A stretch of 64,000 bases of DNA from a virus (Duplodnaviria; Heunggongvirae; Uroviricota; Caudoviricetes), in IMG/VR virus record IMGVR_UViG_3300042322_000140, positions 64,228 to 128,227 of that record. One strand, written 5' to 3'. The position numbers were made by a program, and so were the translations under genes. This document shows, one piece after another, positions 26,789-41,860 of this stretch; positions within the stretch are counted from its first letter, which is position 1; each line of letters begins with the position of its first letter. The notes under the pieces were generated by a model. The model worked only from the letters and a program-made list of their open reading frames with translations, did no database searches and was not told the origin of the DNA.

Positions 26789-27484
26789 TTATTAACCAAG
26801 CCCCTCGAAAGAGGGGTTTATATTACCTAGTACGTAGTGTAGACTATTCAGCAAAGCGAAATTGCCGTATCTATCCATGTGTAGCATGTTAAAGATTTTA
26901 GTTTGTGTGTTTCTATTTTATTGCTTGAGAATATTGTACCTAGGAAATTCAGTATTCAGTGCTAATGAAGATAAAAAATGAAACGCTCTAAAGTAATTGG
27001 GTTAGTAACAATCCTACCTTGTGAATACTTGTAAAGGTAAATTTGTTTATGTAGTTTTTTATTATTATCTTTGTAACTTAATCAATTAATTATATGGGCG
27101 TATATGTTGCAGTTACTATTATAGCAATAGTAGTTTTAAAATCTTTAAAAAAATAATAACTATGGTAAAAGTAGAACTATTAGACTTCGGTTTCAAAGCC
27201 GTTATCATCAAGGACAAAAAAGTTATAGGGGAAATGCTAGGAGTTACTTTAGCTAATCTATACACTAGCTTATATAAAGTTTATGGTATAGATCTCTATG
27301 GAAAAGTGTGTTTAAATTAATTAATATAAATCAATCATTATGACAAATCGAAAAAGTTATGCAGTTTTTATTATCTATCTTATTTTAATGACCTCTATGT
27401 TAGTCTCTAGTTGTGCTAGTAGATGCAAACAACAAAGAAGATATTGGAGTACCCATAGAGCAGTCTAATCTTAAATTAACTAAT

Positions 27485-27661
27485 ATGAAAAAATCAAATC
27501 TTATTATTTCGTCTATTGCACTTGTAGGGCAAGTTATGGGGTTCATCGGTATCTTTGTAGCTGACGGACATAATCAATTAATGTTAAGCCTTTACACATT
27601 TTTATTATTCGGTTGTATTGGGGGACTATCCTTGATATTAGATAGTAGAAGAGTAGTTTAA
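27485..27661 (+). CDS. small 2-TM membrane protein
   Basis: Start re-set to the ATG inside the TTAAATTAACTAATATG motif. Two hydrophobic helices (IISSIALVGQVMGFIGIFVA, LYTFLLFGCIGGLSLIL). Confidence 0.45.
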   Translation: MKKSNLIISSIALVGQVMGFIGIFVADGHNQLMLSLYTFLLFGCIGGLSLILDSRRVV

Positions 27662-27682
27662 ATTAACTAACACAAACAACAA

Positions 27683-27709
27683 GGGGGGACGAAAGTTTCC
27701 CCTTTTTTT
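27683..27709 (+). terminator. rho-independent terminator
   Basis: GGGGGGACGAAAGTTTCCCC followed by T7. Confidence 0.6.
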
Positions 27710-27787
27710 ATGCCCAAAAGTTTGGTAGATTAAAAACTTATTTGTATATTTGTATTGGCAATGATGCTAAACTAATACCTAACTATT

Positions 27788-28006
27788 ATGGCACAAGAAT
27801 TTATCTTAAGAGAAAATGTACTAACGGATAACACGTTATTACTAGCCGATGAAGGCAAAGTATTCAAAGGGGGATACATAGCGATAGTCAAAGAGTATAC
27901 CTATCAAAATTCGTGGTCGGATAAGTTAGGGGTAAAGAGGTTTAAAAAAGAGGATAGACTGAATAACTATCTTGAAAAGAATTACCCACAATTTGAAATG
28001 TATTAA
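27788..28006 (+). CDS. hypothetical protein
   Basis: 72 aa, downstream of the AAAAGTTTGGTAG...TAtaTTTG promoter. Confidence 0.45.
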   Translation: MAQEFILRENVLTDNTLLLADEGKVFKGGYIAIVKEYTYQNSWSDKLGVKRFKKEDRLNNYLEKNYPQFEMY

Positions 28007-28016
28007 ACTAACTAAT

Positions 28017-28196
28017 ATGAAAACTAGAAAATTAGACAAGGACGAGAGACAAGACATTGGTATAACTATTACCAATAAGTTAATTGAATTGGGTTATGTA
28101 CCCGATTGTACGGATACAGACGACCAAAGCGAGTTCGAGGTACAAGACTTAATTGCTAGTGTACTCAAGGAATTAAAATTAAGAAAAAAAGTTTAA
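28017..28196 (+). CDS. hypothetical small protein
   Basis: Start at the motif ATG (tattAAACTAACTAATATG). The track ORF at 27972 is over-extended. Confidence 0.4.
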   Translation: MKTRKLDKDERQDIGITITNKLIELGYVPDCTDTDDQSEFEVQDLIASVLKELKLRKKV

Positions 28197-28535
28197 AAAT
28201 AATAGCACTATCGTTTGGTAGTGTTATTTTTTTGTCGTATATTTGTATAACAATAAGAGGGAACGATATGGATAGATAGAATACATAGGGATAAGGATTT
28301 GACAAAGGGCGATGTGTAATACCAACACAGGAAGAGTAGACTCCGTCCTACCTTATAGTGAGAGAGTTGCGAGGGAAACGTTTGGGTAAAGATACGAAAA
28401 AAATCAAAGCAAAACAAATAAACTTATTAACAGAATTTTGTTGATAACTTAATAAAAAAATTGTTGCATAATCAAAACTATTGCCGTATATTTGTCTTGT
28501 GGTTGTAACAAAGCAATTACTTTATATTATATAGT

Positions 28536-28862
28536 ATGAAAAAAGTAGTAGTTAATATAGGTTTAAAAGTTAAAGATAGTGAGGGTAAAACGCAACTATC
28601 AAGAACGCTAACTTACTTATTAGAAAATGTTGTATTAACTAATGTAAGAGTAGAAGAAGAGGGTATATATAAAGGTAATAGTGAACGTACACTAGTAGCT
28701 TACTTTGAAGTAGATAGTTTAGGACTTTTGCTAAATACTTTGGCTTGGCAATTAAGTCAAGACGCTATTGCTTATAAGATAGACGGAATTGGGGGAGTAG
28801 CTTTTAATCCTTGGTATAAGGGGGAGAAGTTTTTGTTTGACCAACAATTTTTTATAGATTAA
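28536..28862 (+). CDS. hypothetical protein
   Basis: 108 aa. Confidence 0.45.
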   Translation: MKKVVVNIGLKVKDSEGKTQLSRTLTYLLENVVLTNVRVEEEGIYKGNSERTLVAYFEVDSLGLLLNTLAWQLSQDAIAYKIDGIGGVAFNPWYKGEKFLFDQQFFID

Positions 28863-28939
28863 TAAAAATAATTGCAAAAAAGTTTTGCAGTATCAAAAAT
28901 AAGTATTATATTTGTATAACAATTTAAAACAACAACATT

Positions 28940-29101
28940 ATGATTTACGTTTATTTTGAAAGTGGAACACATGCAGAACTAGTAGCAATCTTTAGCAGTG
29001 AAGATTTGTATATGGCTTGTTTGCCAATGCTAGAACAGAAAGCAAAAGAAAGTAATATGTACGTTACAGAAAGCGTACAAGAAACAAGTATTAATCAATA
29101 A
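28940..29101 (+). CDS. hypothetical small protein (53 aa, below ORF-track cutoff)
   Basis: ATG follows the AAAAAGTTTTGCAG...TAtaTTTG promoter. It ends at a TAA inside the next start motif. Confidence 0.3.
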   Translation: MIYVYFESGTHAELVAIFSSEDLYMACLPMLEQKAKESNMYVTESVQETSINQ

Positions 29102-29111
29102 ATTAACTAAT

Positions 29112-29699
29112 ATGAACACATTAAAAATAATACACGATAGTTGTGCAGAAAGTCCTAGAGAGTGGGATAATTTCGGAAATATGATTTGTTTCCATGGTCG
29201 TTATGATTTGGGGGATAAACACAATTACAATGCAGATGATTATTCGGGGTGGGAAGAAATGGAGAAAGCAATCCTAACAGATGAAGGCAAGGGTGCAATC
29301 ATTCTACCTTTGTACCTATACGACCATTCAGCAGTAAGTATAAGCACTAGTCCATTCGGTTGCCGTTGGGATAGTGGGCAGATAGGGTTTATAGTAGTTA
29401 ATAAGAAAACTATTTTAGACAATTTTGGGGGGAAGATTATTACCCAAAAGACAAGGGAGAAAGCAATCAAGTTGCTAGATGCAGAAGTAGAAACGTATAA
29501 CTATTATGTAGAGGGAGAAGTGTATGGTTTTAGGATAGTAGATGAAAACGATGATGAAGTGGATAGTTGTTGGGGTTTTTATGGTACAGACTTTTTAACC
29601 AATGGTATGCTAGAGTATATATCTTCGGAAAATTTAGGGGATATTACACAAGAACAATTAGAGGAGTTAGTAGAGAATACAGAAGTAGAGTATAGTTGA
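29112..29699 (+). CDS. hypothetical protein
   Basis: 195 aa, with a motif start. Confidence 0.5.
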   Translation: MNTLKIIHDSCAESPREWDNFGNMICFHGRYDLGDKHNYNADDYSGWEEMEKAILTDEGKGAIILPLYLYDHSAVSISTSPFGCRWDSGQIGFIVVNKKTILDNFGGKIITQKTREKAIKLLDAEVETYNYYVEGEVYGFRIVDENDDEVDSCWGFYGTDFLTNGMLEYISSENLGDITQEQLEELVENTEVEYS

Positions 29700-29840
29700 T
29701 AGAGGGTTTATTCTCCCCCCTTTGTTGTAGTATGCGAGGGGGGAAATAAAAAAGAAAAAAAGATTAAAAAAAATTAGGATAATAAAAAATTAATTAGTAC
29801 ATTTGTATAGGCAAATAAGCCAAACTTTAAATTAAACAAT

Positions 29841-30137
29841 ATGAAAATTGTAACACAAAAAGCAGTAGCATGTTTCCGTAATGGTGGGAACGCAACATTC
29901 AGTAACACTAGAGTAGTAACTGAAAATGAAGTATCAAAAATGTATTTGTTCGGTAACTTAATTGCTACCCTAGAACACAAGGTTGGGGGAGTAATGAAAG
30001 TATCTAATGCAGGTTGGGATAGCAACACTACAAAGGAAAGATTAAACGGCTTACCTAATGTTCGTATCAACCAAAAGAACTTTGAGTGGTATCTAAATGG
30101 GGAGAAGTGGAACGGAAGTTGGAAACAAATTAACTAA
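29841..30137 (+). CDS. hypothetical protein
   Basis: 98 aa. Confidence 0.45.
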   Translation: MKIVTQKAVACFRNGGNATFSNTRVVTENEVSKMYLFGNLIATLEHKVGGVMKVSNAGWDSNTTKERLNGLPNVRINQKNFEWYLNGEKWNGSWKQIN

Positions 30138-30211
30138 TATAAACAAGGCAAGTAGTGGGGGAGAGTTTTTTGAATTTGTCTTTCCCCTACAAAAGCCACA
30201 AACTAAAAGAT

Positions 30212-31048: not shown

Positions 31049-31339
31049 ATGAAAAAGCAACATATCCAACAAGACATTGGAAGTATTATATCAAGGTATG
31101 GTATCTTTGATATTGGAGAAGTACAAGGAGAGACTTCCCCTAGTATAGAAACAAGAGGTAATCTAGTTAGTCTCCTAGAGGAGTTTAGACAAGACCATGC
31201 AATAGTGGTTGTATATGATAGTAACTATTCTATTGTGGATACTTATAGACTATCTTATATAGATATGCCATTAGATACTTTGAAAGAAGTAAGAGCATTA
31301 TGTTTGCAGTATGAAGAAGTACAAGCAGATTTAGATTAA
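31049..31339 (+). CDS. hypothetical protein
   Basis: 96 aa. Confidence 0.45.
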   Translation: MKKQHIQQDIGSIISRYGIFDIGEVQGETSPSIETRGNLVSLLEEFRQDHAIVVVYDSNYSIVDTYRLSYIDMPLDTLKEVRALCLQYEEVQADLD

Positions 31340-31447
31340 CTAGTTTACTTTTTTTTGATGCCGAAAATATTTTAAAAATAATTGTAAAAAAGTTTGGTAG
31401 TTACATTTTAATTGCTTACCTTTGATTAACAAATTAAAACAAACATT

Positions 31448-31849
31448 ATGAACACAGAGACTAAAAAATCAGTACTAGCGTTATGTAAAAATAACCCACA
31501 ACTAACAGAGTTTGTTAAGCAGACTTTTTTAAGATACACCGATAAAGAAATTATTTTCCTAGACGATGTTTCAAATTGGAATTGGGATTTTGAATTTGAT
31601 TATGGTAATAGTGCATTCGCTTTAAGAAACGAAGATATGCTAGAACTTGATAAAGATTTACCAATAGAAGATAGAGGTTGGCAACCGGAGACTATGGAAG
31701 AATTTTTTGAAGAGTATGGTTGTGATTTTGATTGGGATAAACTAACTTTAGACAACGGCAAAGTTTTATTCTTACTAGACCAAGAAGAATACCTAGAGTT
31801 TCTAGTTTTAGACCAAGACAAAATAGAAGAGGGTTACGCAATTTTATAA
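31448..31849 (+). CDS. small acidic protein (W/D/E-rich)
   Basis: 133 aa, DWDWDFEFDYGN...; very acidic. Confidence 0.5.
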   Translation: MNTETKKSVLALCKNNPQLTEFVKQTFLRYTDKEIIFLDDVSNWNWDFEFDYGNSAFALRNEDMLELDKDLPIEDRGWQPETMEEFFEEYGCDFDWDKLTLDNGKVLFLLDQEEYLEFLVLDQDKIEEGYAIL

Positions 31850-31868
31850 ATTAGTTAATACAAACATT

Positions 31869-32105
31869 ATGAAAGAAATTAAGATTTTTAGAATTAGATA
31901 CTACGATGATAACACAGATTATTTTTTCAAAGGTATCGAAGAGTTAAGAGACTTTGCCAAAGAAAGAATAAATGGTGGTTGGGAAACAGAAACAACTGAA
32001 GAAGATTTAGACGATGATGCTAAACTATTTGATTTTCTTATAGAAGATTATGGCGAAGAACTTACAGAACTATTCAGCATTAAGCTAGAAGATTTTAATC
32101 AATAA
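31869..32105 (+). CDS. small acidic protein
   Basis: 78 aa, E/D-rich. Confidence 0.45.
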   Translation: MKEIKIFRIRYYDDNTDYFFKGIEELRDFAKERINGGWETETTEEDLDDDAKLFDFLIEDYGEELTELFSIKLEDFNQ

Positions 32106-32115
32106 ACTAACTAGT

Positions 32116-32313
32116 ATGAAGTTAAATGAAAATCACCGAAGAGTGCTACTAGATGAACTAGAAATAGCAACGGCTCAATATAATGAGCATATACTTTTAA
32201 AAGAAGATGCCCCTAGTTTATCCGAAGGATATTGTGAAATTCGTATCTTCCTAGAAACAGAGAGGATAGAGTTAATCAAAAAAAGTTTAATCACTAACGA
32301 GATAGACTACTAG
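32116..32313 (+). CDS. hypothetical small protein
   Basis: 65 aa, with a motif start. Confidence 0.4.
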   Translation: MKLNENHRRVLLDELEIATAQYNEHILLKEDAPSLSEGYCEIRIFLETERIELIKKSLITNEIDY

Positions 32314-32400
32314 TAAAAAAAATTTAAAAATAATTGTAAAAAAGTTTGGTAGTGTAGAATTAATTACTTATCTTTGACTAACTTAAAAAACAGAAACATT

Positions 32401-32727
32401 ATGAACACAAGAATTTTAAACAACGATTTAGACAACCTAGAAGTTGAAGTATCAAGATATTTCTCCGAGTTGCTAGAAGAACAACAAGAGTTTATTATCT
32501 TTGCAGAAGAAGATTTAGAACACGATGCCCCCGATGATTACCTAGAGGTAAGAAACGACATGACCGGAAACGTATTTGATGTACACCCATTGAAAGTTAC
32601 CAAAGAGGGTATCCTAGTTGTTGAAAGTGATGGAAGTTTTGTAAGACACTTAATTAGAATACACGACCTATCTAGCGTACAAGACCGAATTAACTTATGT
32701 GAACTAATGGAGAACCTTTTAGACTAA
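32401..32727 (+). CDS. small acidic protein
   Basis: Start set to the ATG at 32401, downstream of the promoter whose -7 box is at 32369-32376. Confidence 0.45.
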   Translation: MNTRILNNDLDNLEVEVSRYFSELLEEQQEFIIFAEEDLEHDAPDDYLEVRNDMTGNVFDVHPLKVTKEGILVVESDGSFVRHLIRIHDLSSVQDRINLCELMENLLD

Positions 32728-32732
32728 CTAAT

Positions 32733-33050
32733 ATGGACAGACAAGAAGATTGCAGATTAATAGCAGAGTTTTTAGGTTGGAATAAGTCTTTAGGTATAAC
32801 CTACCACAAAGATACAAAAGTAACTACGGCAAAGCATTTTGATTTTGTTGCCAACGGAGATTGGAACGGCTTAATGAAAGTAGTAGAAAAAATAGAGAGT
32901 TTAGGAGTATGTGTAGAGATAAGAGAAAATGTATGTTACATATCCCCATTTCCAAACAACTATATTTCCGAACTAGAACAGACTAAACTACAAGCAACAT
33001 TCAAGGCAGTAGTAGAATTTATAAAATGGTATAACAATCAAACTAACTAA
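32733..33050 (+). CDS. hypothetical protein
   Basis: 105 aa, with a motif start. Confidence 0.45.
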   Translation: MDRQEDCRLIAEFLGWNKSLGITYHKDTKVTTAKHFDFVANGDWNGLMKVVEKIESLGVCVEIRENVCYISPFPNNYISELEQTKLQATFKAVVEFIKWYNNQTN

Positions 33051-33051
33051 T

Positions 33052-33228
33052 ATGAAAATTACAATTTTAGATTTTAGTACCGGAGAAGTTTTTATCTTCC
33101 CCTTTGATGAAAATGTGTACGAAGATGCACAAGATTTTTTTGATAGCGAATATTGTACAGACAGAGGTATAAACCTATCAAATTGTGAGTACATGGTATC
33201 GGATACCTTAACCCTACAAATATTTTAA
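33052..33228 (+). CDS. hypothetical small acidic protein (58 aa, below track cutoff)
   Basis: Exact start motif CAAACTAACTAATATG. It ends at a TAA inside the next motif. Confidence 0.35.
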   Translation: MKITILDFSTGEVFIFPFDENVYEDAQDFFDSEYCTDRGINLSNCEYMVSDTLTLQIF

Positions 33229-33238
33229 ATTAACTAGT

Positions 33239-33514
33239 ATGAAAATTTTTAACAGATTGAACAATAAGTTCGAGGATTTTGATAACCAAGAGTTTTATCT
33301 AACCATAATGGTTGATGAATTAAGAGACGACAAAGCAGAAGTAGTAACATTGATTGATACTAAAACTTCTTTAGTATTGCCCCTAAATAGTGAAGATGAT
33401 TTTGACACTATTCAAGCAGTAGAGTTATTCAAAAAAGAAGATAAAAGATTTGCTATCTATGTAGATTTTTTTAGAAACGACAACCCAAGTAGTCTTAAAG
33501 AAATTTTAAACTAA
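33239..33514 (+). CDS. small acidic protein
   Basis: 91 aa. Confidence 0.45.
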   Translation: MKIFNRLNNKFEDFDNQEFYLTIMVDELRDDKAEVVTLIDTKTSLVLPLNSEDDFDTIQAVELFKKEDKRFAIYVDFFRNDNPSSLKEILN

Positions 33515-33519
33515 CTAAT

Positions 33520-33723
33520 ATGAACTCAATAAGTAAAATCGAAGAAGTACTATTTGACAAATTTAATACATCATTCAGTATAAGTAGAGACAAGTATGGT
33601 TATATGGTAACACCAAACGATACTTTAGCACTAGCAGAATATTTAGAAACAGATGCAAATAGCGATGATTTTGTCAGCGATTTAGACAAGATTGAAGTAG
33701 CAGTCAATATTCTGTTTCTTTAG
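33520..33723 (+). CDS. hypothetical small protein
   Basis: 67 aa. Confidence 0.4.
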   Translation: MNSISKIEEVLFDKFNTSFSISRDKYGYMVTPNDTLALAEYLETDANSDDFVSDLDKIEVAVNILFL

Positions 33724-33856
33724 TTTTTTACAAGGCGAAAAAAAAAATAAAAATAATTGCAAAAAAGTTTGGTGGTTTAAAATAATTGCCGTATATTTGT
33801 ATAACAAAACAGAGGGATAGCCGAAACCCTAACCTAGTAGGCACAAATCAAATATT

Positions 33857-34162: not shown

Positions 34163-34309
34163 CATGGTAACTATTTGTGTGATGCCAAACTTAAAAGGCA
34201 CAAGAGCAGAACATTGTAAAGCACTATTGGTATGCTTGGCAATAGATATGACTTACATTATACCAATACTAACAACAATTTAAACAAACTAATTTAAAAA
34301 TCAATTATT

Positions 34310-34897
34310 ATGACAAACAATTTATTTAACGGCTTACAAGTCGTAACCGGAGAAGTTAAAGCAAACTTATTAGACGAGAACACTGACATCAGTATTTCAT
34401 TAAGAGGAGTAGTATCCTTAACCAAAGGAAACTTTGAGCAAACCTACAATTATTGGGTTAATAATTGTGAGAACACAAGATACGGATATGTTGATTGTGA
34501 TGATTGGGATTGGGACGAGCAATCAACCAAACTAGGTGGGTTACCTATTGATAGTTTAAGCCAACTAAGACAAACACTACAAAATAGTGGATTGAGTACT
34601 CTAGCAAATAGCCTTGATTTTGAAGAGGAAGAAAGAAGAAAAGCAATATTTCTAACAATTCAAAATAGCATCGGTTTCCAAAAGCAGTTTGGTAAGAAAG
34701 CAAAGTTTTGGAGATTTTTAAGCCCCGATGAACAAACACTTGTTAGGTTAAGTTTTGCTATCGACAATTTTGATACTTGCCACGAACACGACAAAAGAAA
34801 TTTTGGTATCAAAAGTTATGATGAAGAGGGAGAAGAGATTAAGCACTATGTACCAACCCTAGAAGAGTTAAAAGAACTTAAAGAAAGTTTAACATAA
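34310..34897 (+). CDS. hypothetical protein
   Basis: 195 aa. Confidence 0.5.
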   Translation: MTNNLFNGLQVVTGEVKANLLDENTDISISLRGVVSLTKGNFEQTYNYWVNNCENTRYGYVDCDDWDWDEQSTKLGGLPIDSLSQLRQTLQNSGLSTLANSLDFEEEERRKAIFLTIQNSIGFQKQFGKKAKFWRFLSPDEQTLVRLSFAIDNFDTCHEHDKRNFGIKSYDEEGEEIKHYVPTLEELKELKESLT

Positions 34898-34904
34898 TCT
34901 TAAC

Positions 34905-35177
34905 ATGAAAGATTGGGCAGATACAAACATTTGCCCTATCTTTACAAAGAATTTAAAATCAATCATTATGCAAAACTTATTAAGATTAACTAGTACAAAG
35001 GGAGAGACTATCCTTATCGGAGTAGAGAGTATCATTTCAGTAGAGACACAAAAAACTACTGACACACAAGGTAGAGTATCGGAGTGTACCAAAATTTTTA
35101 GCCGTTCAGCTATGGCATCAAGTTATTGGGTTACCGAAAGTGTAGAGCAGATTTATAACCAATACAGAAACAAATAG
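34905..35177 (+). CDS. hypothetical protein
   Basis: 90 aa. Confidence 0.45.
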   Translation: MKDWADTNICPIFTKNLKSIIMQNLLRLTSTKGETILIGVESIISVETQKTTDTQGRVSECTKIFSRSAMASSYWVTESVEQIYNQYRNK

Positions 35178-35181
35178 AGTT

Positions 35182-35700
35182 ATGGAAGTAGATAAAAAAT
35201 GGTTTTATCATCGTAACAAACTAGTTACTTTAAACATAGAATTAAAAAATAAGTCAATAGATTTTGCTATTGAATTGATAGACAAGTTAATAGATAGTTT
35301 AATATACGACTTCAACGATTGGATACTATACATGCAAAGTATGTCCGACTATTCAATAGAGGAACTAGAAAGTTTTGAAGAACACTATCAAAATCTACTA
35401 ACCTTTGAAGAAAATTTAGATAACTTTGTAACCAAACGAGTAAAAAATATGGAAGATTTACTAGAGTTATACAAGAAAGACACATTCAGCGATGAAGATA
35501 ATAGATTAATTAATCTAGCAATCGACAACTATGAACTCTATACAGACGACATCAAAGAAGATTTCATGGGGTATATGTATTCAAACATACCTTTGAAATA
35601 TACACAAGAGGAGATTTGGGGATATACAGATGAGAACTATTCAAACGGACTAACACACAAAGAAAATTTTAACAATTTATTAAATTATTTAAACAAATAG
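35182..35700 (+). CDS. acidic hypothetical protein
   Basis: 172 aa. Confidence 0.5.
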   Translation: MEVDKKWFYHRNKLVTLNIELKNKSIDFAIELIDKLIDSLIYDFNDWILYMQSMSDYSIEELESFEEHYQNLLTFEENLDNFVTKRVKNMEDLLELYKKDTFSDEDNRLINLAIDNYELYTDDIKEDFMGYMYSNIPLKYTQEEIWGYTDENYSNGLTHKENFNNLLNYLNK

Positions 35701-35705
35701 AAATT

Positions 35706-36065
35706 ATGGGAAGATATTATACCGGAGACATTGAGGGAAAATTTTGGTTTGGTTTACAACCAAGCGATGCACCTAGCAGATTTGGAGGTACAGAGCAAGA
35801 ACCGGCTTACATCACATACGATTTTCAAGAGGATAACCTTGAAGAGATAGAAGAAGAAATCAAAAACATTCAAGAAAATCTAGGAGAAAAAATCGGTATC
35901 ATTGATAAATTTTTTGAGGACAACACCGGCTACAACGATGCTATGTTACAAGAAGTAGGTATCACTAACGATGAGTTAAGAGAGTATGCAGACTTACAAC
36001 TAGGTATTCAAATACGAGATTGTGTCAAAGAGCAAGGGTATTGTACAATGGATTGTGAAATTTAA
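35706..36065 (+). CDS. acidic hypothetical protein
   Basis: 119 aa. Confidence 0.5.
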   Translation: MGRYYTGDIEGKFWFGLQPSDAPSRFGGTEQEPAYITYDFQEDNLEEIEEEIKNIQENLGEKIGIIDKFFEDNTGYNDAMLQEVGITNDELREYADLQLGIQIRDCVKEQGYCTMDCEI

Positions 36066-36085
36066 ACTAACTAATATAAAGTAAG

Positions 36086-36310
36086 ATGAGAGTAGTTAGG
36101 ATAAACACAACGGCATACGAGGAAGAGGACTTCTTCTTAATGACAGATTTGACAGACGAACAGATTGAGGAAGTAATTACCCCAATAGTAGAACTAGAAC
36201 GCAACGATGAAAGTTACTATACAAACGAGGAACTAACAGAAACCTTGATGTACAAGTACCCTAATAATGTGATTGTGATGTACACAGATTTTGAAAAAAT
36301 AATTATCTAA
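36086..36310 (+). CDS. small acidic protein
   Basis: 74 aa. Confidence 0.4.
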   Translation: MRVVRINTTAYEEEDFFLMTDLTDEQIEEVITPIVELERNDESYYTNEELTETLMYKYPNNVIVMYTDFEKIII

Positions 36311-36370
36311 AAAAGTTTTGTAGATTAAAATAAAAGTATTATCTTTACCAAGAATTTAAAATCAACTATT

Positions 36371-36908: not shown

Positions 36909-37344
36909 AGAAAAAGTCCTAGAGCAAATTGGACTAGCAGAAGAAATACAAGAGATAGCCGGAATTAACATAGTAAATTGTGGTAATTGTGGAGAGGTAC
37001 TTCTTCATAGAATTACCGAAGATGAGTATATTGAATGCCCTTATTGTGATTGTAAGAGTGAGCCTTGTGATTTCCCCGATTTTTTATATCGTGGTATGGA
37101 GACCTCCGAAGCCTTTGATGAAGAGCCAGTAGTTACTGAAAATCTATTAGACGATGCAGTCAGTAAAATTACTGTGGCTTTGGTAAAAGGTTTGCAGTAC
37201 GGAGAGGAGTTAGAACTAAATGAAGAGTACACTTTGTACCACTATACCGAAGATGATGTTATTGTGTTGAACAGAACAGAAGATTGGGAAGAACTTTATC
37301 AAATATTGTACGAAGATGACAAGATAATTTTTGAGGTACTTTAA
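36895..37344 (+). CDS. Cys-cluster (zinc-ribbon-like) acidic protein
   Basis: 149 aa, CGNCGE...CPYCDC. Confidence 0.45.
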   Translation: MKTIREKVLEQIGLAEEIQEIAGINIVNCGNCGEVLLHRITEDEYIECPYCDCKSEPCDFPDFLYRGMETSEAFDEEPVVTENLLDDAVSKITVALVKGLQYGEELELNEEYTLYHYTEDDVIVLNRTEDWEELYQILYEDDKIIFEVL

Positions 37345-37354
37345 ATAAGATAGT

Positions 37355-37576
37355 ATGAGTAAGTATTTTAGCATTAACGGATATTGGAAAGATGACAAGT
37401 CCGAGTTTGAGGGGTTTATCGTCAAAGAGTATGACGATGCAGAAGAAGATGAGTTTAGAGATGAACAAATCTTACATTATGGTTTGAGTGAAAATGACCT
37501 CAAACATTCAGTTGATACCGGTGGTAATGATAATTTGGATTTTGTAGTAACTTCCTTTGGGGAAATAGATTTTTAA
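37355..37576 (+). CDS. small acidic protein
   Basis: 73 aa. Confidence 0.4.
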   Translation: MSKYFSINGYWKDDKSEFEGFIVKEYDDAEEDEFRDEQILHYGLSENDLKHSVDTGGNDNLDFVVTSFGEIDF

Positions 37577-38003: not shown

Positions 38004-38423
38004 ATGACTAGAATATCAGTTGGGGTAAGAGCAATAGAGCTTTGCGATGCCCACTTAATCAAAGAAAGAATTGAACTATTAAGAATACCGAATGCAATAA
38101 AGTCCGGTAAAGCAGTTGTTAAAGACATACCTAAAAGTTTTACTTTAGGTGTAGGGCATGTTAAATTCTTTTATGACAAATTGGGTTACCTACAAGAAAG
38201 GTACGAAGAACTTACGGCAGAGTGTTTAGAAAGAGATTTTAAGATAACAGACTTCTCGGATAGCTTTGCAAACTTACCCACAAACCTTTGTAATAATTAC
38301 CAAGAAAGAGATATTGATAGAGTAATTGTCGTAGAGAGAGTTAATGAGAGATTGCTAGGCATGAAAAACTTGAAGTACAACAGAGAGCAAATTGATGTAG
38401 AACATTTATTAATTAAAAAATAA
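38004..38423 (+). CDS. hypothetical protein
   Basis: 139 aa. Confidence 0.45.
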   Translation: MTRISVGVRAIELCDAHLIKERIELLRIPNAIKSGKAVVKDIPKSFTLGVGHVKFFYDKLGYLQERYEELTAECLERDFKITDFSDSFANLPTNLCNNYQERDIDRVIVVERVNERLLGMKNLKYNREQIDVEHLLIKK

Positions 38424-38487
38424 TCAAAAAAGTTTTGGTAATCACAAAAAAAGAATTACCTTTGTAAAAAATTTAAAATCAACAACT

Positions 38488-38865
38488 ATGAAAAATTTAA
38501 CGGCAGAGCAAAGATTAGTCTTTGTAAGACAAGATGTAGCAAGATTGCTAGAACAATTACCGGAAAAGGTTTTAATAACGCCTATCGAGGGGTTTGAGGA
38601 CTTAGAAACCATATTAAGCAATATCGCAGTCGCTTGTGATGAAGAAGACCAAGAGCCAAAACATTGGCTTGTAACATGGTACGAAGTATTTAGGCATGAT
38701 GACGAGGAAGGTACAGAAACTATTGCTAATTTCGATACAGAGAAACAAGCAAAAGACTTTATGTATGATTACTCAATGAGGTATCCGGAAGTAGAGTTAT
38801 ATTATGACGAGTGGCAGAGTAATGCAGACGGAAGTGGAGTAGCAAAAAGAAACCCTATAAACTAA
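38488..38865 (+). CDS. acidic hypothetical protein
   Basis: 125 aa. Confidence 0.45.
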   Translation: MKNLTAEQRLVFVRQDVARLLEQLPEKVLITPIEGFEDLETILSNIAVACDEEDQEPKHWLVTWYEVFRHDDEEGTETIANFDTEKQAKDFMYDYSMRYPEVELYYDEWQSNADGSGVAKRNPIN

Positions 38866-38870
38866 CTAAT

Positions 38871-39071
38871 ATGAACGCAAAAAAAATACTAGGGGAATTG
38901 TTGGACTTACAAAGTAATGGACACGACTTGGAAAATATAGAAGTTTATTACAGAAACAATCCCGATAGTGATGTTGAAAGCATATCATTTGTTTCGGAAG
39001 ATTTGTATGACGAACAGACAAATAGCATATTGAGAAGTATAGTATTAATGGAAGAAATTGAAGAAGTATGA
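38871..39071 (+). CDS. small acidic protein
   Basis: 66 aa, with a motif start. Confidence 0.4.
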   Translation: MNAKKILGELLDLQSNGHDLENIEVYYRNNPDSDVESISFVSEDLYDEQTNSILRSIVLMEEIEEV

Positions 39072-39704: not shown

Positions 39705-39706
39705 TA

Positions 39707-39871
39707 ATGACTTATATTGTATTCGAGTATAACTTGAAGTCAAACACCTTTGGCAAAGTAGTAAAGAAAGGTTTAACAAAAGAGAAAGCCAAGTCCCTAG
39801 TTACAGAGCTAGGGGTTGGTTATTCTTATGGGGAAACAAATAGAATGTTAGAAGATTTTAAACTAAAATAA
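39707..39871 (+). CDS. hypothetical small protein
   Basis: Start trimmed to the ATG after the membrane-protein stop. The track ORF at 39626 overlaps the previous gene. Confidence 0.35.
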   Translation: MTYIVFEYNLKSNTFGKVVKKGLTKEKAKSLVTELGVGYSYGETNRMLEDFKLK

Positions 39872-39875
39872 TATT

Positions 39876-40100
39876 ATGGACATTAGAATAAATATAGTAG
39901 AAGTAGCTACAATACTTGCAGATAGAGACCTAATAACTTCATTTGGAGATGAGGGAGGTAAGCATAGATTTCCAAATGGTATCATACTAGACCTAGATGA
40001 TGAGACTTCTCACACAGAAGAGGCACAAGACTATGTTAATGCAAGATACGATTATTGGTATGACTTTTTGTGGGACTTAAAAAGAGCAGAGTATGAATAA
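39876..40100 (+). CDS. hypothetical protein
   Basis: 74 aa. Confidence 0.4.
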   Translation: MDIRINIVEVATILADRDLITSFGDEGGKHRFPNGIILDLDDETSHTEEAQDYVNARYDYWYDFLWDLKRAEYE

Positions 40101-40317
40101 GGATAACTTACTTCTCAACATAACAGATGTTAATGATTTTCTGTTAGACGACACAAGATGCTCTAAAGAGCAGAAAGAAGAGATTATTAGTACTCTATGG
40201 GGTATCAATCAAGTAAGGGGCAGAAAGTGGGTTTTTAGCCACGATTGGAAAGAGTACATCATTGATGAGTACAACGAGCATAACGACTTCATAAAAACCT
40301 ATACATTTAAAGTATGA
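40093..40317 (+). CDS. hypothetical protein
   Basis: 74 aa. Confidence 0.4.
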   Translation: MNKDNLLLNITDVNDFLLDDTRCSKEQKEEIISTLWGINQVRGRKWVFSHDWKEYIIDEYNEHNDFIKTYTFKV

Positions 40318-40517
40318 ATACAAGAAAAACAAAATTAGTAGAGATAGATATTACCCTAAATACTGGGTTTAATATGTTTTTGAACCCAAATGTAGTAACT
40401 CTAAGATTTGACAAAAAAGTTTTAGACAGTACTCCAAGTAGAGAGGTTAAGTTAGGGCTAGAGACCACGCATAAAACTAGCATGGCAAAGTCAGCAAAAA
40501 ACAAAAATAAAAAGTAA
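40314..40517 (+). CDS. hypothetical basic protein
   Basis: 67 aa, lysine-rich C-terminus. Confidence 0.4.
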   Translation: MNTRKTKLVEIDITLNTGFNMFLNPNVVTLRFDKKVLDSTPSREVKLGLETTHKTSMAKSAKNKNKK

Positions 40518-40520
40518 GAT

Positions 40521-40751
40521 ATGGCAGATACATTTTTAATAAATAATATAGCAGCAAGTATTGTAAGTGAAACGGCTACAATCACAGGGAAAGCTTCTCT
40601 AAGCCCCAATAAGATGAAAATTCAAATGGACGGAACTCAACTTGAGGACTTTACAAAGGGTATTGCAAATCAAGAGATACAATCACAAGCAAACATTGAC
40701 TTTATAAAAGGGTTAGTGTTAGAGGTGTTGGCAGAACAAAATTTGATATAG
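40521..40751 (+). CDS. hypothetical protein
   Basis: 76 aa. Confidence 0.4.
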   Translation: MADTFLINNIAASIVSETATITGKASLSPNKMKIQMDGTQLEDFTKGIANQEIQSQANIDFIKGLVLEVLAEQNLI

Positions 40752-40887
40752 TATGATAGCATGGTTAATTTTGTTAATATTGGCAATGTATTGGTTAAAT
40801 AGTTTAAAAAGATTTTAGTATGCCCTTAATAGTAGTAGTAATAATAGTGTTTATTTATATATATTCAAACACATCAAGATAAATGAT

Positions 40888-41121
40888 ATGAAAACAATAA
40901 TCCACGTAAATCAACATGTAATTCGATCAAATAGTAAGAATGGAGAAGAAAAGCCGGTGCTTACTTGTAAGACTTACAAAGAAAACAAATATGCCAAGGA
41001 AGTAGAAATACTAGATGTTGAGGGGAGAGTTGTAGCAAAAGTTATTTATAGCCCAAACAAGCCCCTATCATGTGGGGCTAAAGTTTGGATAGAGACAGAA
41101 AACAAAGTAAATATAATATAA
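40888..41121 (+). CDS. hypothetical protein
   Basis: 77 aa. Confidence 0.4.
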   Translation: MKTIIHVNQHVIRSNSKNGEEKPVLTCKTYKENKYAKEVEILDVEGRVVAKVIYSPNKPLSCGAKVWIETENKVNII

Positions 41122-41278
41122 TCTCCAAATTCAGTTGAAATCCTTACAAACCTTGTAATGTTGGTCGTTGTTATGTTCGTGTCGCTGTACTTTGAATTTA
41201 GGAGAGAAAATCATAATGGTACAAATAACAATATAGGTGACAATCTGGAAAGACAGATTTAATTTTAAATTAACTAAT

Positions 41279-41860
41279 ATGAAACTAATAAGAGATTTTA
41301 AATATTTTATACGAGAGTTTGATTTTTTAAGAGCTTATAACTCTCCGTTCAAAGCACCAAAATTAAGGTGGTATTGCGGAAAGATAGCTTTAGGCACACC
41401 TTACTTCTACCCTAGAAAGTGGGTAAAATTCACTCCACAAGATGCTGTTGATAAAGCTACAGAGTATGTTAATGATGATAAGCATATTAAAAAGTCTTTT
41501 GAAGAGTGGTACGCTAGTTTTTTAAATTACAGAAAAGCGGTTCCTAGAAAGATAGGCTTTGACTTTGTGCCTCTAGGTTGGAAGACAAAGTACGATAGTT
41601 ATAGATTTGAGTGGTCTCCAAGAATAAGTTTTGTATTTATTAAATGGCAGATAGCAGTCACATTTGTAGCAGAACACTCAGACCAATATTGGGAGAGTTG
41701 GCTATACTACACAAGAGAAACTGACAAGACTAAGCCTACAAAAGATAGGATTGCACAATGCAGAAAAGAGGCACGACAAACTTGGACTACTCATCACTCA
41801 GATGGGACAAAAGAAACAACAAACTACTACAATAAAATATTAAAACGTAAGTGGTTGTAG
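41279..41860 (+). CDS. hypothetical protein
   Basis: Start re-set to the motif ATG (ttttAAATTAACTAATATG). Trp/Tyr-rich, 193 aa. Confidence 0.45.
   Translation: MKLIRDFKYFIREFDFLRAYNSPFKAPKLRWYCGKIALGTPYFYPRKWVKFTPQDAVDKATEYVNDDKHIKKSFEEWYASFLNYRKAVPRKIGFDFVPLGWKTKYDSYRFEWSPRISFVFIKWQIAVTFVAEHSDQYWESWLYYTRETDKTKPTKDRIAQCRKEARQTWTTHHSDGTKETTNYYNKILKRKWL

What the first reader, a model, noticed from the sequence alone, without database searches (positions are those of the whole stretch)
27465..41281. Conserved 17-nt start-context motif TTAAAyTAACTAATATG at at least 13 early-gene starts
Near-identical copies of (T)TAAA(T/C)TAACTA(A/G)TATG end in the initiation codon of many small early genes. 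Positions include 27485, 28017, 29112, 29841, 32116, 32733, 33052, 33239, 33520, 36086 (variant), 38871 and 41279. Degenerate copies lie at 25755, 27655 and 30125.

The stop codon of the preceding gene usually lies inside the motif. In three cases the motif is translated as ...KLTNM by an over-extended upstream ORF, which shows that automated callers will mis-start these genes.

The motif is too long and too conserved for a simple A-rich Bacteroidetes ribosome-binding context. Possibilities are a phage-specific promoter giving leaderless mRNAs, a translational coupling or re-initiation signal, an RNA-processing site, or the footprint of a mobile gene cassette (moron) with a fixed junction.
Basis: seen in the sequence. 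Interest (0 to 1): 0.6.

Follow-up and report, generated by a model that had tools for sequence, protein, structure and literature searches.

The report
Stop-start linker motif between phage genes
A small clade of Bacteroidota phages joins many of its small accessory genes with one near-identical 17-base linker that stops the upstream gene and starts the next; it is a real but fairly ordinary kind of phage regulatory repeat, unusual in serving a host whose ribosomes do not use classical ribosome-binding sites.

Summary
TAAAYTAACTARTATG occurs 18 times with at most 2 mismatches, against 0.94 expected, and 16 copies lie on the + strand between 25.7 and 46.7 kb.

The motif reads as TAR-AY-TAR-N-TAR-T-ATG. 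That is three TAA/TAG stops in the two frames other than the ATG frame, set in an A-rich, unstructured initiation region without a Shine-Dalgarno sequence.

- Upstream ORFs end at -13, -8 or -4.
- The -13 stop is lost exactly when the upstream ORF reads through to -4.
- The triple stop is intact at 29 of 38 gene junctions but only 3 of 28 leader contexts.
- Adenines fall at -12, -6 and -3, which are determinants known for Flavobacterium ribosomes.

The region has its own canonical Bacteroidetes promoters (TTTG / TAnnTTTG) and terminators. Motif genes are second or later genes in those operons, so a leaderless promoter is unlikely.

The motif is conserved in at least five related metagenomic phages and absent from more distant relatives. 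Gene insertions and deletions between relatives break exactly at these start regions.

Best reading: a clade-specific stop/restart translation linker that also makes gene cassettes interchangeable. A RegA-like operator role is not excluded. I rate it a new variant of a known kind, of moderate-low interest.

The parts
27471..27487 (+). Motif copy TTAAATTAACTAATATG; ATG of a 58-aa gene
   Evidence: The upstream 42-aa ORF ends 16 nt before the ATG.
28003..28019 (+). Motif copy; ATG of a 59-aa gene
   Evidence: The upstream 72-aa ORF stops at the -13 TAA. This is the second gene after promoter 27721-27752.
28522..28538 (+). Leader variant TTATATTATATAGTATG; ATG of a 108-aa gene
   Evidence: It lies in the 5' leader after promoter 28464-28494, and only one of the three TAR triplets is intact.
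29098..29114 (+). Motif copy; ATG of a 195-aa gene
   Evidence: The upstream 53-aa ORF stops at -13. In L120 and L124 the orthologue is promoter-proximal and has no motif.
29827..29843 (+). Leader variant TTAAATTAAACAATATG; ATG of a 98-aa gene
   Evidence: It follows a -7-like box at 29798-29805, and the third TAR is lost. The orthologues in L120 and L124 sit at junctions and keep all three.
32102..32118 (+). Motif copy (TAGTATG form); ATG of a 65-aa gene
   Evidence: The upstream 78-aa ORF stops at -13.
32719..32735 (+). Motif copy TTAGACTAACTAATATG; ATG of a 105-aa gene
   Evidence: The upstream 108-aa ORF stops at -8. The same junction leads to different downstream genes in L120 and L124.
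33038..33054 (+). Motif copy TCAAACTAACTAATATG; ATG of a 58-aa gene
   Evidence: The upstream ORF reads through -13 (CAA instead of TAA) and stops at -4.
33225..33241 (+). Motif copy; ATG of a 91-aa gene
   Evidence: The upstream ORF stops at -13.
33506..33522 (+). Motif copy; ATG of a 67-aa gene
   Evidence: The upstream ORF stops at -8.
37341..37357 (+). Looser copy TTAAATAAGATAGTATG; ATG of a 73-aa gene
   Evidence: The upstream 149-aa ORF stops at -13.
38857..38873 (+). Motif copy; ATG of a 66-aa gene
   Evidence: The upstream 125-aa ORF stops at -8. In L124 the same junction leads to a different gene.
41265..41281 (+). Motif copy; ATG of a 193-aa gene
   Evidence: A 34-aa ORF (41158..41262) ends 16 nt upstream. 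The 193-aa gene is absent from L119, with the crossover in ...TATGAAAyTA.
36063..36078 (+). Displaced copy TAAACTAACTAATATA; the next ATG is at 36086
   Evidence: The first TAA is the stop of 35706..36065.
27313..27328 (+). Displaced copy TAAATTAATTAATATA, followed by a second initiation region (AAATCAATCATTATG); ATG at 27340
   Evidence: repeat family D17. The second TAA is the stop of 27162..27320.
34281..34296 (+). Displaced copy TAAACAAACTAATTTA, followed by AAAAATCAATTATTATG; ATG at 34310
   Evidence: repeat family D17. The first TAA is the stop of 34164..34283.
27659..27674 (+). Relic copy at a gene end (TAAATTAACTAACACA) with no start; terminator 27681-27704 follows
30126..30141 (+). 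Relic copy CAAATTAACTAATATA at the end of 29841..30137 (ATA in place of ATG)
31332..31347 (+). Relic copy TAGATTAACTAGTTTA at the end of 31049..31339, followed by a T-run and a promoter
31847..31859 (+). Loose copy TAAATTAGTTAAT containing the stop of 31448..31849; ATG at 31869
25760..25775 (+). Relic copy TAAATTAACTAATACA immediately after terminator 25734-25755
25871..25883 (+). Core copy TATACTAACTAAT, ending 14 nt upstream of the ATG of the DUF932 gene (25898)
27721..27752 (+). Context: host-type promoter (TTTG-N-TATATTTG) heading the operon that contains motif gene 28017
28884..28914 (+). Context: host-type promoter heading the operon 28940..29101 -> motif -> 29112..29699
31393..31424 (+). 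Context: host-type promoter cassette. Together with 32345-32376 it bounds a 3-gene indel relative to L119.
32345..32376 (+). Context: host-type promoter heading the operon with four consecutive motif junctions (32733, 33052, 33239, 33520)
33768..33799 (+). Context: host-type promoter cassette. Together with 36317-36347 it bounds a 7-gene indel relative to L119.
36317..36347 (+). Context: promoter cassette (-7 box TATCTTTA) heading the operon with motif gene 37355
38434..38464 (+). Context: host-type promoter heading the operon 38488..38865 -> motif -> 38871
27681..27704 (+). Context: intrinsic terminator closing the operon that ends with relic copy 27659
28201..28228 (+). Context: terminator-like hairpin after motif gene 28017..28196, overlapping the next promoter

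Best explanation
The motif is a clade-specific intercistronic linker that acts on the mRNA. Counting the A of ATG as 0, it reads T-13 A R | A Y | T-8 A R | N | T-4 A R | T | ATG.

It does two jobs.

1. Termination. Its three TAA/TAG triplets cover both reading frames other than that of the ATG. Whatever ORF arrives from upstream is therefore terminated 1, 5 or 10 nt before the next start.

2. Initiation. Its adenines at -12 to -10, -7/-6 and -3/-2, its T at -1, the A-rich second codon and the lack of secondary structure make a near-optimal initiation region without a Shine-Dalgarno sequence for Bacteroidia ribosomes. Ribosomes can then start, or restart after terminating, on the next small gene inside operons transcribed from ordinary host-type promoters.

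Shown here: the anatomy, the real use of all three stop positions, the dependence of the stops on context, the operon position and conservation within the clade.

Inferred: that the motif raises or couples translation, and that it persists partly because a frame-independent stop-plus-start module lets small gene cassettes be inserted, lost or swapped without breaking expression.
For: 1. Enrichment and strand bias. There are 18 matches against 0.94 expected, and 16 are on the coding strand.

2. The host-type transcription signals are elsewhere. AAAAAAGTTTGGTAG-N-TAyCTTTG promoters match the published Bacteroidetes -33/-7 consensus TTTG/TAnnTTTG. They lie at 27042, 27721, 28214, 28464, 28884, 31393, 32345, 33768, 36317, 38434 and 41884. 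Terminator-like hairpins are enriched (19 found against 6.4 expected). Motif genes are second or later genes of these operons.

3. Fit to known initiation determinants. Adenines at -3, -6, -12 and -13 raise translation in F. johnsoniae (PMC6847099), and the motif has A at -3, -6 and -12. The 102 other genes of the window show the same weak pattern (A 0.69 at -12, -11 and -3; T 0.57 at -1). TTTAAA is enriched five-fold in the 28 nt before starts (28 found against 5.6 expected, p = 6e-13). Start regions are unstructured: MFE -1.6 and -2.4 kcal/mol, against -5.6 inside genes.

4. The triplets behave as stops.
- In the window, L119, L120 and L124 the upstream ORF ends at -13, -8 or -4.
- TAA and TAG alternate, and TGA never occurs.
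- T-13 is replaced (CAA, AAA, TAC) in every case where the ORF reads through to -4.

5. Context dependence. Sites were chosen only by A at -12, -10, -7 and -3 and T at -1. All three TAR triplets are intact at 29 of 38 junctions but at 3 of 28 leader or other contexts (Fisher p = 8.5e-8). The orthologous start of the 98-aa gene has 2 of 3 triplets where it is promoter-proximal (window, L119) and 3 of 3 where an ORF precedes it (L120, L124).

6. Clade conservation. There are 12-15 copies per 20 kb in L119, L120 and L124, 10 in L184 and 5 in L180. There are 0-1 on the gene strand in the other 47 loci and none in the 10 more distant loci, or in Cellulophaga phage phi17:2.

7. The same initiation sequence TTTAAAAACAAATAAAATATG occurs once after a promoter (44441) and once at an internal junction (44634). 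Such sequences are therefore tied to starts, not to promoters.
Against: - Stops not used by the annotated upstream ORF are still intact in 61 of 70 cases. Leader-context initiation regions do without them. So neither simple termination nor initiation alone explains the whole conservation.
- C at -5 and Y at -9 are conserved in the window without an obvious reason, although -5 varies in L120 and L124.
- Close relatives (L121-L123, 63% identity in the 195-aa protein) manage with other junctions or with one promoter per gene. The motif is therefore not required by Bacteroidia ribosomes as such.
- The host is not identified, and no expression data exist.
- The TTTAAAA box in leaders sits at a fixed 7 nt from the -7 box and a variable 13-20 nt from the ATG. 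Part of that box may therefore belong to the promoter or the 5' end rather than to the initiation region.
Confidence: 0.6

Rival explanations
1. The motif is the operator of a trans-acting RNA-binding regulator or nuclease, phage- or host-encoded. The regulator would work like T4/RB69 RegA (a translational repressor of many early mRNAs) or RegB (a nuclease that cuts in early initiation regions). It would shut off or process a regulon of small accessory genes together.
For: - RegA sites are unstructured, A+U-rich, and overlap or abut the AUG.
- RB69 RegA SELEX gave AAUAAUAAUAAnA. The authors suggested that UAA stops of upstream genes inside the next gene's initiation region contribute to recognition (PMC3014915).
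- The motif is three UAA triplets abutting AUG.
- It is restricted to one gene class and region (25.7-41.3 kb) and to one clade.
- Unused stop triplets are conserved at 87%, which a specific binder would explain.
- This reading is compatible with the best explanation rather than exclusive of it.
Against: - No RegA-like protein was found. No strong Pfam or PHROG hit of that kind appears among the 128 predicted proteins (only the 25 best families are listed). That is a weak test, and only about half of the genome is in the window.
- A/G alternation at -11, -6 and -2, and free variation at -5 in relatives, fit stop-codon logic better than base-specific recognition.
- The loss of the triplets in leader contexts argues that they serve termination.
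Confidence: 0.15
2. The motif is mainly a recombination module. It would be a short fixed junction kept uniform by exchange between copies, through which small ORF cassettes are inserted, deleted and swapped. This is the promoterless counterpart of the PeSL cassettes of T4-like phages.
For: - The window and L119 (80-100% aa identity) differ by indels whose ends fall exactly at start regions. These are W 41288-41922 (crossover in ...TATGAAAyTA), L119 12320-12637 (two ORFs plus motifs inserted before an ATG) and W 28940-29111 (a 53-aa ORF plus motif inserted before the ATG of the 195-aa gene, relative to L120 and L124).
- The 108-aa gene is joined through the same motif to three different downstream genes in the window, L120 and L124. 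Several gene families change neighbours and gain or lose the motif.
- Consensus differs by genome: TAATATG in the window, TAGTATG in L120.
- Two copies share 25 nt (29112 and 32116).
- The phage encodes a RecA/UvsX-like recombinase.
- Relic copies without an ATG exist.
Against: - Indel ends at gene boundaries are expected anyway, because only intact genes survive.
- The largest indels are bounded by the 45-100-nt promoter cassettes, not by the motif.
- The W 41288-41922 event used a motif on one side only.
- Motif-preceded genes are not significantly less conserved than neighbouring genes (Fisher p = 0.18-0.32).
- 17 nt is short for homologous recombination.
Confidence: 0.12
3. The motif is a promoter for a phage-encoded or phage-modified RNA polymerase. 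Transcription would start at or just before the ATG and give leaderless mRNAs.
For: - The motif is 17 nt long, strictly oriented and directly in front of genes.
- TAAAYT at -13 to -8 loosely resembles a -10 hexamer placed 7 nt from the ATG.
- Distant relatives L173 and L176 have one promoter cassette per small ORF.
- The terminase places the phage near crAss-like and Cellulophaga phages. Some of those use a virion RNA polymerase whose early promoters have no known motif (bioRxiv 10.1101/2020.03.07.982082).
Against: - The motif does not match TTTG/TAnnTTTG.
- Strong canonical promoters and terminators already flank each operon.
- Sigma-70-type sites are not enriched (87 found against 85.8 expected).
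- The variation of the motif obeys reading-frame logic.
- Copies displaced 10-16 nt from the ATG, and relics followed directly by a terminator, make no sense as promoters.
- 87% of F. johnsoniae transcripts carry leaders longer than 10 nt.
- No RNA polymerase gene was seen in the window.
Confidence: 0.05
4. The motif is a DNA site for a repressor acting on elongation, like the 13-bp stoperators of Cluster A mycobacteriophages.
For: It is an asymmetric short repeat in one orientation, at stop codons in short intergenic spaces, present in many copies. The stoperator comparison is taken from PMC3203893.
Against: - The fixed register to the ATG and the frame-dependent variation point to translation.
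- The motif is confined to one 16-kb region.
- No repressor or integrase was seen in the window.
- The genome looks like that of a large lytic phage.
Confidence: 0.03

Closest known systems
Shine-Dalgarno-less ('Kozak-like') translation initiation regions of Bacteroidia (F. johnsoniae; Baez et al. 2019, PMC6847099; Arpin et al. 2026, PMC13000457)
   Same: - No Shine-Dalgarno sequence.
- Adenines at -3, -6 and -12.
- An A-run around -14 to -10.
- Low secondary structure.
- No extra AUG near the start.
- The other 102 genes of the window show the same weak pattern.
   Different: - Host regions carry roughly 3 bits of information upstream of the start, while the motif carries about 17.
- -13 is T, not A.
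- T at -13, -8 and -4 are extra and form stop codons.
- The sequence is nearly identical at 12 or more genes and is specific to one phage clade.
Start-Associated Sequences (SAS) of Cluster K mycobacteriophages (Pope et al. 2011, PMC3203893)
   Same: - An asymmetric short repeat (13 bp there) in 11-19 copies.
- One orientation, immediately upstream of start codons and preferring ATG.
- Restricted to the non-structural half of the genome.
- Occupies the position of the ribosome-binding site but is more conserved than ribosome binding explains.
- Found in front of unrelated gene families and specific to a clade.
- Function still unknown.
   Different: - SAS is GGGATAGGAGCCC, contains a Shine-Dalgarno core, lies 3-7 bp before the start, and mostly follows intergenic gaps longer than 50 bp. 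About half carry inverted-repeat extensions.
- The present motif abuts the ATG, lies at 1-10-nt junctions, is A/T-only apart from one C, and embeds three stop codons.
PeSL cassettes (promoter-early stem-loops) of T4-like phages (Arbiol et al. 2010, PMC2839356; Comeau et al. 2014, PMC4122927)
   Same: - Repeated regulatory sequences concentrated among small non-essential ORFs of hyperplastic regions.
- They lie at the ends of insertions, deletions and replacements between close relatives.
- They span from the upstream stop to the downstream start.
   Different: - PeSLs are composite promoter-plus-terminator elements of about 50-100 bp.
- The motif has neither a promoter nor a hairpin.
- The true PeSL analogues here are the AAAAAAGTTTGGTAG...TAyCTTTG promoter cassettes (families D1-D4), which bound the largest indels.
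RegA translational operators of T4 and RB69 (review PMC3014915)
   Same: - Unstructured A+U-rich sites at or abutting the AUG of many early mRNAs.
- The RB69 RegA selection yielded UAA repeats.
- Stops of upstream genes inside the next gene's initiation region were proposed to contribute to recognition.
   Different: - RegA sites have no strict consensus in vivo, whereas this motif is nearly invariant.
- No RegA homologue was detected in the window.
- The host lacks Shine-Dalgarno-based initiation.
Stoperators of Cluster A mycobacteriophages (mentioned in PMC3203893)
   Same: 13-bp asymmetric repeats near stop codons, in one orientation relative to transcription.
   Different: - Stoperators are repressor-binding DNA sites spread over the genome of a temperate phage.
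- They have no fixed register to the next ATG.

Membership tests
Bacteroidia SD-less initiation region | No Shine-Dalgarno sequence upstream of the start | tested here: met
   G is at most 0.21 at every position from -22 to -1 in 115 starts, and there is no GGAG-like peak.
Bacteroidia SD-less initiation region | Adenines at -3, -6, -12 and -13 (A of AUG = 0) | tested here: met
   The motif has A at -3, -6 and -12, with 88-95% occupancy. -13 is T, the first base of a stop. Three of the four determinants are met.
Bacteroidia SD-less initiation region | Low secondary structure around the start | tested here: met
   MFE over -25..+25 is -1.64 kcal/mol for motif starts and -2.40 for other starts, against -5.62 inside genes (p = 6e-6 and 2e-15).
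Bacteroidia SD-less initiation region | Actually drives initiation by host ribosomes | not testable with these tools
   This needs reporters, toeprinting or ribosome profiling.
Translational coupling / termination-reinitiation junction | The upstream stop lies within a few nt of the downstream start on one transcript | tested here: met
   Stops are used at -13, -8 and -4, giving gaps of 10, 5 and 1 nt. There is no terminator or promoter between the genes.
Translational coupling / termination-reinitiation junction | Downstream translation depends on upstream translation | not testable with these tools
   This needs bicistronic reporters with premature stops.
Host sigma-A(Bfr) promoter | -33 TTTG and -7 TAnnTTTG elements | tested here: not met
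   The motif contains neither element. Canonical copies lie elsewhere in the region.
Start-Associated Sequences (Cluster K) | Asymmetric short repeat, one orientation, immediately before starts, in the non-structural region, in front of unrelated genes | tested here: met
Start-Associated Sequences (Cluster K) | Sequence GGGATAGGAGCCC with a Shine-Dalgarno core, 3-7 bp from the start, mostly after gaps longer than 50 bp | tested here: not met
   The sequence is different, it abuts the ATG, and gaps are 1-16 nt. The motif is analogous to SAS, not a member.
PeSL | Early promoter plus stem-loop terminator within the repeat | tested here: not met
   The repeat unit is about 20 nt and has no promoter or hairpin.
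PeSL | Lies at the boundaries of indels between close relatives | tested here: inconclusive
   Several indel ends fall at motif or ATG positions. There is no significant excess of variability, and the null expectation that indels end at gene boundaries is not excluded.
RegA-type operator | Unstructured A+U-rich site with UAA triplets at the AUG | tested here: met
RegA-type operator | A cognate RegA-like protein is encoded and binds the site | tested here: inconclusive
   No homologue was found in the 64-kb window. The rest of the genome was not seen, and binding is not testable.
Stoperator | A repressor-binding DNA site in a temperate phage, spread over the genome | not tested
   No repressor or integrase was noticed. 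The motif is confined to 25.7-41.3 kb.

The most novel reading that the evidence does not exclude
The motif is a dedicated translational control element. It would be either the operator of a RegA-like repressor or nuclease that coordinately silences a regulon of 12 or more accessory genes, or the first defined termination-reinitiation cassette for ribosomes that cannot use Shine-Dalgarno pairing. In both versions the extra, unused UAA triplets would be recognised as such.
Probability: 0.15. Interest if true: 0.65.

Novelty: new variant of a known kind. Interest (0 to 1): 0.35.

Why it matters
How Bacteroidia ribosomes choose start codons without Shine-Dalgarno pairing is still unresolved. The roles of A-6, A-12 and A-13, and of protein bS1, are not explained by current structures (PMC13000457).

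A natural, nearly invariant 17-nt initiation region used at a dozen unrelated genes is a ready-made strong test sequence for that question. It could also serve as a compact bicistronic linker for expression constructs in Flavobacteria and Bacteroides.

For annotation, the motif gives exact start codons for many small ORFs that automatic callers over-extend (three cases here).

For phage evolution, it shows a promoterless counterpart to the promoter cassettes that flank shuffled accessory genes in large phages.

Tried and rejected
Relatives had to be found through proteins.
- Megablast of 27-42 kb against cultured phages found nothing. The nearest cultured relatives by terminase are Cellulophaga phages phi17:2 and phi4:1 at 35% identity. 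phi17:2 has no such motif in its first 50 kb.
- The sigma-70 promoter scan showed no enrichment, as expected for this phylum.
- I tested whether motif-preceded genes are more variable than their neighbours. They are not significantly so (p = 0.18-0.32), and I do not claim it.
- The search for a RegA homologue was negative but weak.
- Rfam has nothing at the motif.
- I considered base pairing of UAACUAAU with the universally conserved 790 loop of 16S rRNA (7 of 8 pairs). By my own estimate about 0.6 such matches are expected by chance in a 1.5-kb rRNA, so I dropped it.
- I considered that the shared TAACTAAT in two late promoters (TTTTAACTAATTTTGC) links the motif to transcription. The motif lacks the TTTG of the -7 box, so I treat this as coincidence.
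- Stop-codon reassignment was considered. TAG serves as a real stop in L120 and L124, so there is no sign of it.

Full report
**What the window is.** The window is part of a large Bacteroidota phage.
- The minus strand from 1 to 13 kb carries portal, large terminase and virion genes.
- The plus strand from 13 to 64 kb carries a helicase, GroEL, ribonucleotide reductase, a DnaB-like helicase, a RecA/UvsX-like recombinase and a family-A DNA polymerase.
- No cultured phage is close at the DNA level.
- The nearest proteins are at 35-39% identity, in Cellulophaga, Flavobacterium and Bacteroides phages.
- G+C is about 33%.

- TAAAYTAACTARTATG with at most two mismatches occurs 18 times, against 0.94 expected, and no shuffle reaches 18.
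- Sixteen copies are on the + strand between 25.7 and 46.7 kb.
- All listed ATG positions, the degenerate copies and the three over-extended '...KLTNM' ORFs are confirmed.
- The repeat is only about 20-22 nt long (TTTAAAyTAACTAATATGAA). Identity drops to 70-75% immediately outside it, and the downstream proteins are unrelated. It is therefore not a by-product of gene duplication.

**Where transcription starts.** The same region contains a second and longer repeat family. This family is AAAATAATTGyAAAAAAGTTTGGTAG-N-TAyCTTTG, followed about 7 nt later by AATTTAAAAy (families D1-D4). It matches the published Bacteroidetes promoter, with -33 TTTG, -7 TAnnTTTG and a start 4-5 nt after the -7 box (PMC6847099).
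- Copies lie at 27042, 27721, 28214, 28464, 28884, 31393, 32345, 33768, 36317, 38434, 41884, 44385 and further on.
- Terminator-like hairpins are enriched (19 found against 6.4 expected), whereas sigma-70-type sites are not (87 against 85.8).
- Laying genes, promoters and terminators side by side shows that motif genes are second or later genes of these operons. One example is P32345 -> 108-aa gene -> motif -> 105 aa -> motif -> 58 aa -> motif -> 91 aa -> motif -> 67 aa -> P33768.
- Only two variants (28536 and 29841) sit in a 5' leader directly after a promoter.
- The copy at 41279, which seemed isolated, follows a 34-aa ORF at 41158..41262.

**Anatomy.** With the A of ATG as 0, the motif is T-13 A R / A Y / T-8 A R / N / T-4 A R / T / ATG. 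That is three stop codons. Those at -13 and -4 share one frame, the one at -8 is in the other frame, and none is in the frame of the ATG.
- In the window and in the relatives L119, L120 and L124 the upstream ORF really ends at one of these positions. This gives intergenic gaps of 10, 5 or 1 nt.
- TAA and TAG alternate freely. L120 prefers ...TAGTATG and TAGTTAGTATG.
- TGA never occurs, so the middle A at -12, -7 and -3 is invariant.
- Where the upstream ORF stops at -4 it must read through -13. In exactly those copies T-13 is replaced (CAA, AAA or TAC), while the rest of the motif is kept and dictates the last codons of the upstream protein.

**Initiation signal.** In F. johnsoniae, adenines at -3, -6, -12 and -13 and an A-run from -14 to -11 raise translation. 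No Shine-Dalgarno sequence is used, and how these adenines act is unresolved (PMC6847099; PMC13000457).
- The 102 non-motif genes of the window show that same weak pattern: A 0.69 at -12, -11 and -3, and T 0.57 at -1, about 3 bits in total.
- The motif agrees with this consensus at -12, -11, -10, -7, -6, -3 and -1. It departs from it only where a T makes a stop.
- TTTAAA is five-fold enriched in the 28 nt before starts (28 found against 5.6 expected, p = 6e-13), mostly beginning at -20 to -15.
- Start regions are unstructured, with MFE -1.6 kcal/mol for motif starts and -2.4 for other starts, against -5.6 inside genes.
- The identical sequence TTTAAAAACAAATAAAATATG occurs once behind a promoter (44441) and once at an internal junction (44634). 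Such sequences therefore belong to starts rather than to promoters.

**Are the stops functional or just part of the initiation region?** I selected sites in five non-redundant genomes (the window, L120, L124, L184 and L180) only by A at -12, -10, -7 and -3 and T at -1. I then asked whether the T and R positions complete stop codons.
- At junctions, where an upstream ORF ends within 16 nt, all three triplets are intact in 29 of 38 sites.
- In leader or other contexts they are intact in 3 of 28 sites (Fisher p = 8.5e-8).
- The orthologous start of the 98-aa gene has 2 of 3 triplets where it is promoter-proximal (window, L119) and 3 of 3 where an ORF precedes it (L120, L124).

The stop triplets are therefore tied to having something to terminate. 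However, triplets not used by the annotated upstream ORF are still intact in 61 of 70 cases. Four of the nine failures are the forced read-through cases. This excess is the part that neither termination nor initiation fully explains.

**Relatives.** The 195-aa protein (29112..29699) finds 51 IMG/VR loci.
- The motif is present at 12-15 copies per 20 kb in L119 (95% identity), L120 (65%) and L124 (62%). It is absent from L121-L123 (63%) and, at 0-1 copies on the gene strand, from the other 47 loci.
- Two further contigs found through the DUF932 protein carry it: L184 with 10 copies and L180 with 5.
- Loci at 70-71% identity in the 108-aa protein (L173-L179) have none.
- In L173 and L176 nearly every small ORF instead has its own promoter plus a conserved leader, for example TATATTTGTACTCTAATTAAAACAC...ATG about 20 times.

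The motif is therefore a clade-specific solution, not something the host ribosome imposes.

**Gene flux.** Gene order maps show heavy shuffling.
- The 108-aa gene is joined through the same motif to three different downstream genes in the window, L120 and L124.
- Several families change neighbours and gain or lose the motif accordingly.
- Between the window and L119 (80-100% protein identity), indels break exactly at start regions:
  - W 31440-32315 and W 33866-36358 lie between promoter cassettes.
  - W 41288-41922 has its crossover in ...TATGAAAyTA.
  - Two ORFs with their own motifs are inserted before the ATG of the 108-aa gene in L119.
  - A 53-aa ORF plus motif is inserted before the ATG of the 195-aa gene, relative to L120 and L124.
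- Relic copies without an ATG sit at gene ends (27659, 30126, 31332). Two copies are followed by a second, different initiation region (27313 and 34281, family D17).

This fits a cassette-junction role. Two cautions apply. Indels must end at gene boundaries to survive. Also, motif-preceded genes are not significantly more variable than their neighbours (p = 0.18-0.32).

**Conclusion on mechanism.** The best-supported reading (about 0.6) is a frame-independent stop-plus-restart linker read on the mRNA. It terminates the incoming ORF in either foreign frame. It also presents an optimal initiation region without a Shine-Dalgarno sequence 1-10 nt downstream, inside operons made by host RNA polymerase. 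Its uniformity probably also reflects that such a module makes accessory-gene cassettes interchangeable.

The rivals are as follows.
- A RegA/RegB-like operator (0.15). The parallel with UAA-triplet RegA sites (PMC3014915) is real, but no such protein was found.
- Recombination as the primary role (0.12).
- A leaderless promoter (0.05). This is contradicted. It is not formally excluded, because the phage is related to groups with unusual polymerases.
- A stoperator-like DNA site (0.03).

**Comparison with known systems.** The motif works like the Bacteroidia 'Kozak-like' initiation region but is far more constrained and adds stops. Its closest described analogue is the Start-Associated Sequence of Cluster K mycobacteriophages (PMC3203893), whose function is still open. 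It is not a member of that family, because the sequence, spacing and context differ. The PeSL cassettes of T4-like phages (PMC2839356) correspond to the promoter cassettes of this phage rather than to the motif.

**Verdict.** The feature is real and is a new variant of a known kind. Interest is moderate-low (0.35). It has practical value for start-codon annotation and as a natural test sequence for initiation without a Shine-Dalgarno sequence.

Noticed in passing
window 28246-28400 (after promoter 28214-28245); L119 about 9038-9260, L120 about 9230-9440, L124 about 9240-9450: This is a candidate small non-coding RNA.
- It is the best-conserved DNA between the window and L120/L124: 91% identity, against 68-85% for the other matched segments.
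- It has no ORF of 35 aa or more.
- It starts right after a canonical promoter.
- RNAalifold predicts 26 pairs, 5 of them with compensatory changes, including a hairpin replaced wholesale in L119.
- It has no Rfam match, even at E <= 1.
   Followed up: partly
window 48562-48930, 22495-22564 and about 49190-49215: Rfam finds a permuted tmRNA (RF04321, 64 bits) at 48562-48824, next to a tRNA-Met at 48857-48930, and a weak tRNA at 22495-22564 (32 bits). A T-loop-like GGTTCGATTCC also lies just before the ATG at 49239. A phage-borne two-piece tmRNA would be worth a look.
   Followed up: no
window 27042-63330, + strand (for example 28865-28935, 31344-31433, 36298-36368, 38415-38485, 44366-44436): About 18 copies of a 45-100-nt promoter cassette (AAAATAATTGyAAAAAAGTTTGGTAG-N-TAyCTTTG-N7-AATTTAAAAy) are present. 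This is a strong Bacteroidetes-type promoter family that bounds the largest indels relative to L119. It is a PeSL-like system in a Bacteroidota phage.
   Followed up: partly
L173 and L176 (IMG/VR contigs of 233 and 247 kb): In these more distant relatives almost every small ORF has its own promoter plus a near-identical leader, with about 20 copies per 20 kb. An example is cTTATATTTGTACTCTAATTAAAACAC...ATG.
   Followed up: no
L121 6224, 6421 and 7297: The sister lineage without the motif has a different start-associated sequence, (T)TTAACTCTCACAnnATG. It occurs three times, and in two of them a terminator hairpin lies directly upstream.
   Followed up: no
L119 19179-19846 (relative to window 40888): An HNH-type endonuclease gene with its own promoter is inserted in L119 just upstream of the ATG of the 77-aa gene, about 5 nt before it. 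It looks like a free-standing homing endonuclease. The window also has a SegE-like GIY-YIG endonuclease hit.
   Followed up: no
window 7691-7720 and 4800-4829, - strand: The promoters of the portal and neighbouring late genes read TTTTAACTAATTTTGC. They share TAACTAAT with the motif and use a TAATTTTG -7 box, unlike the TAyCTTTG of the + strand operons. The shared sequence is probably coincidence. The two -7 box classes may mark temporal classes.
   Followed up: no
window 27325-27347, 34295-34317 and 34953-34975: A second small family of initiation regions, TAWAAATCAATyATTATGACAAA, is present. Two of its three copies directly follow a decayed motif copy and start proteins beginning MTN (family D17).
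   Followed up: no
window 41158-41262: There is an unannotated 34-aa ORF with a hydrophobic N-terminus (MLVVVMFVSLYFEF...). It ends 16 nt before the motif ATG at 41279.
   Followed up: yes
window, whole (proteins of alignment A3): Pfam hits include an Acb2/Tad1 hairpin domain (anti-CBASS/Thoeris sponge family, E = 4e-10), MazG, thioredoxin, an SPFH/Band 7 domain and a DenV-like pyrimidine-dimer glycosylase at 38004..38423. Apart from the glycosylase, I did not work out which ORF carries each hit.
   Followed up: no
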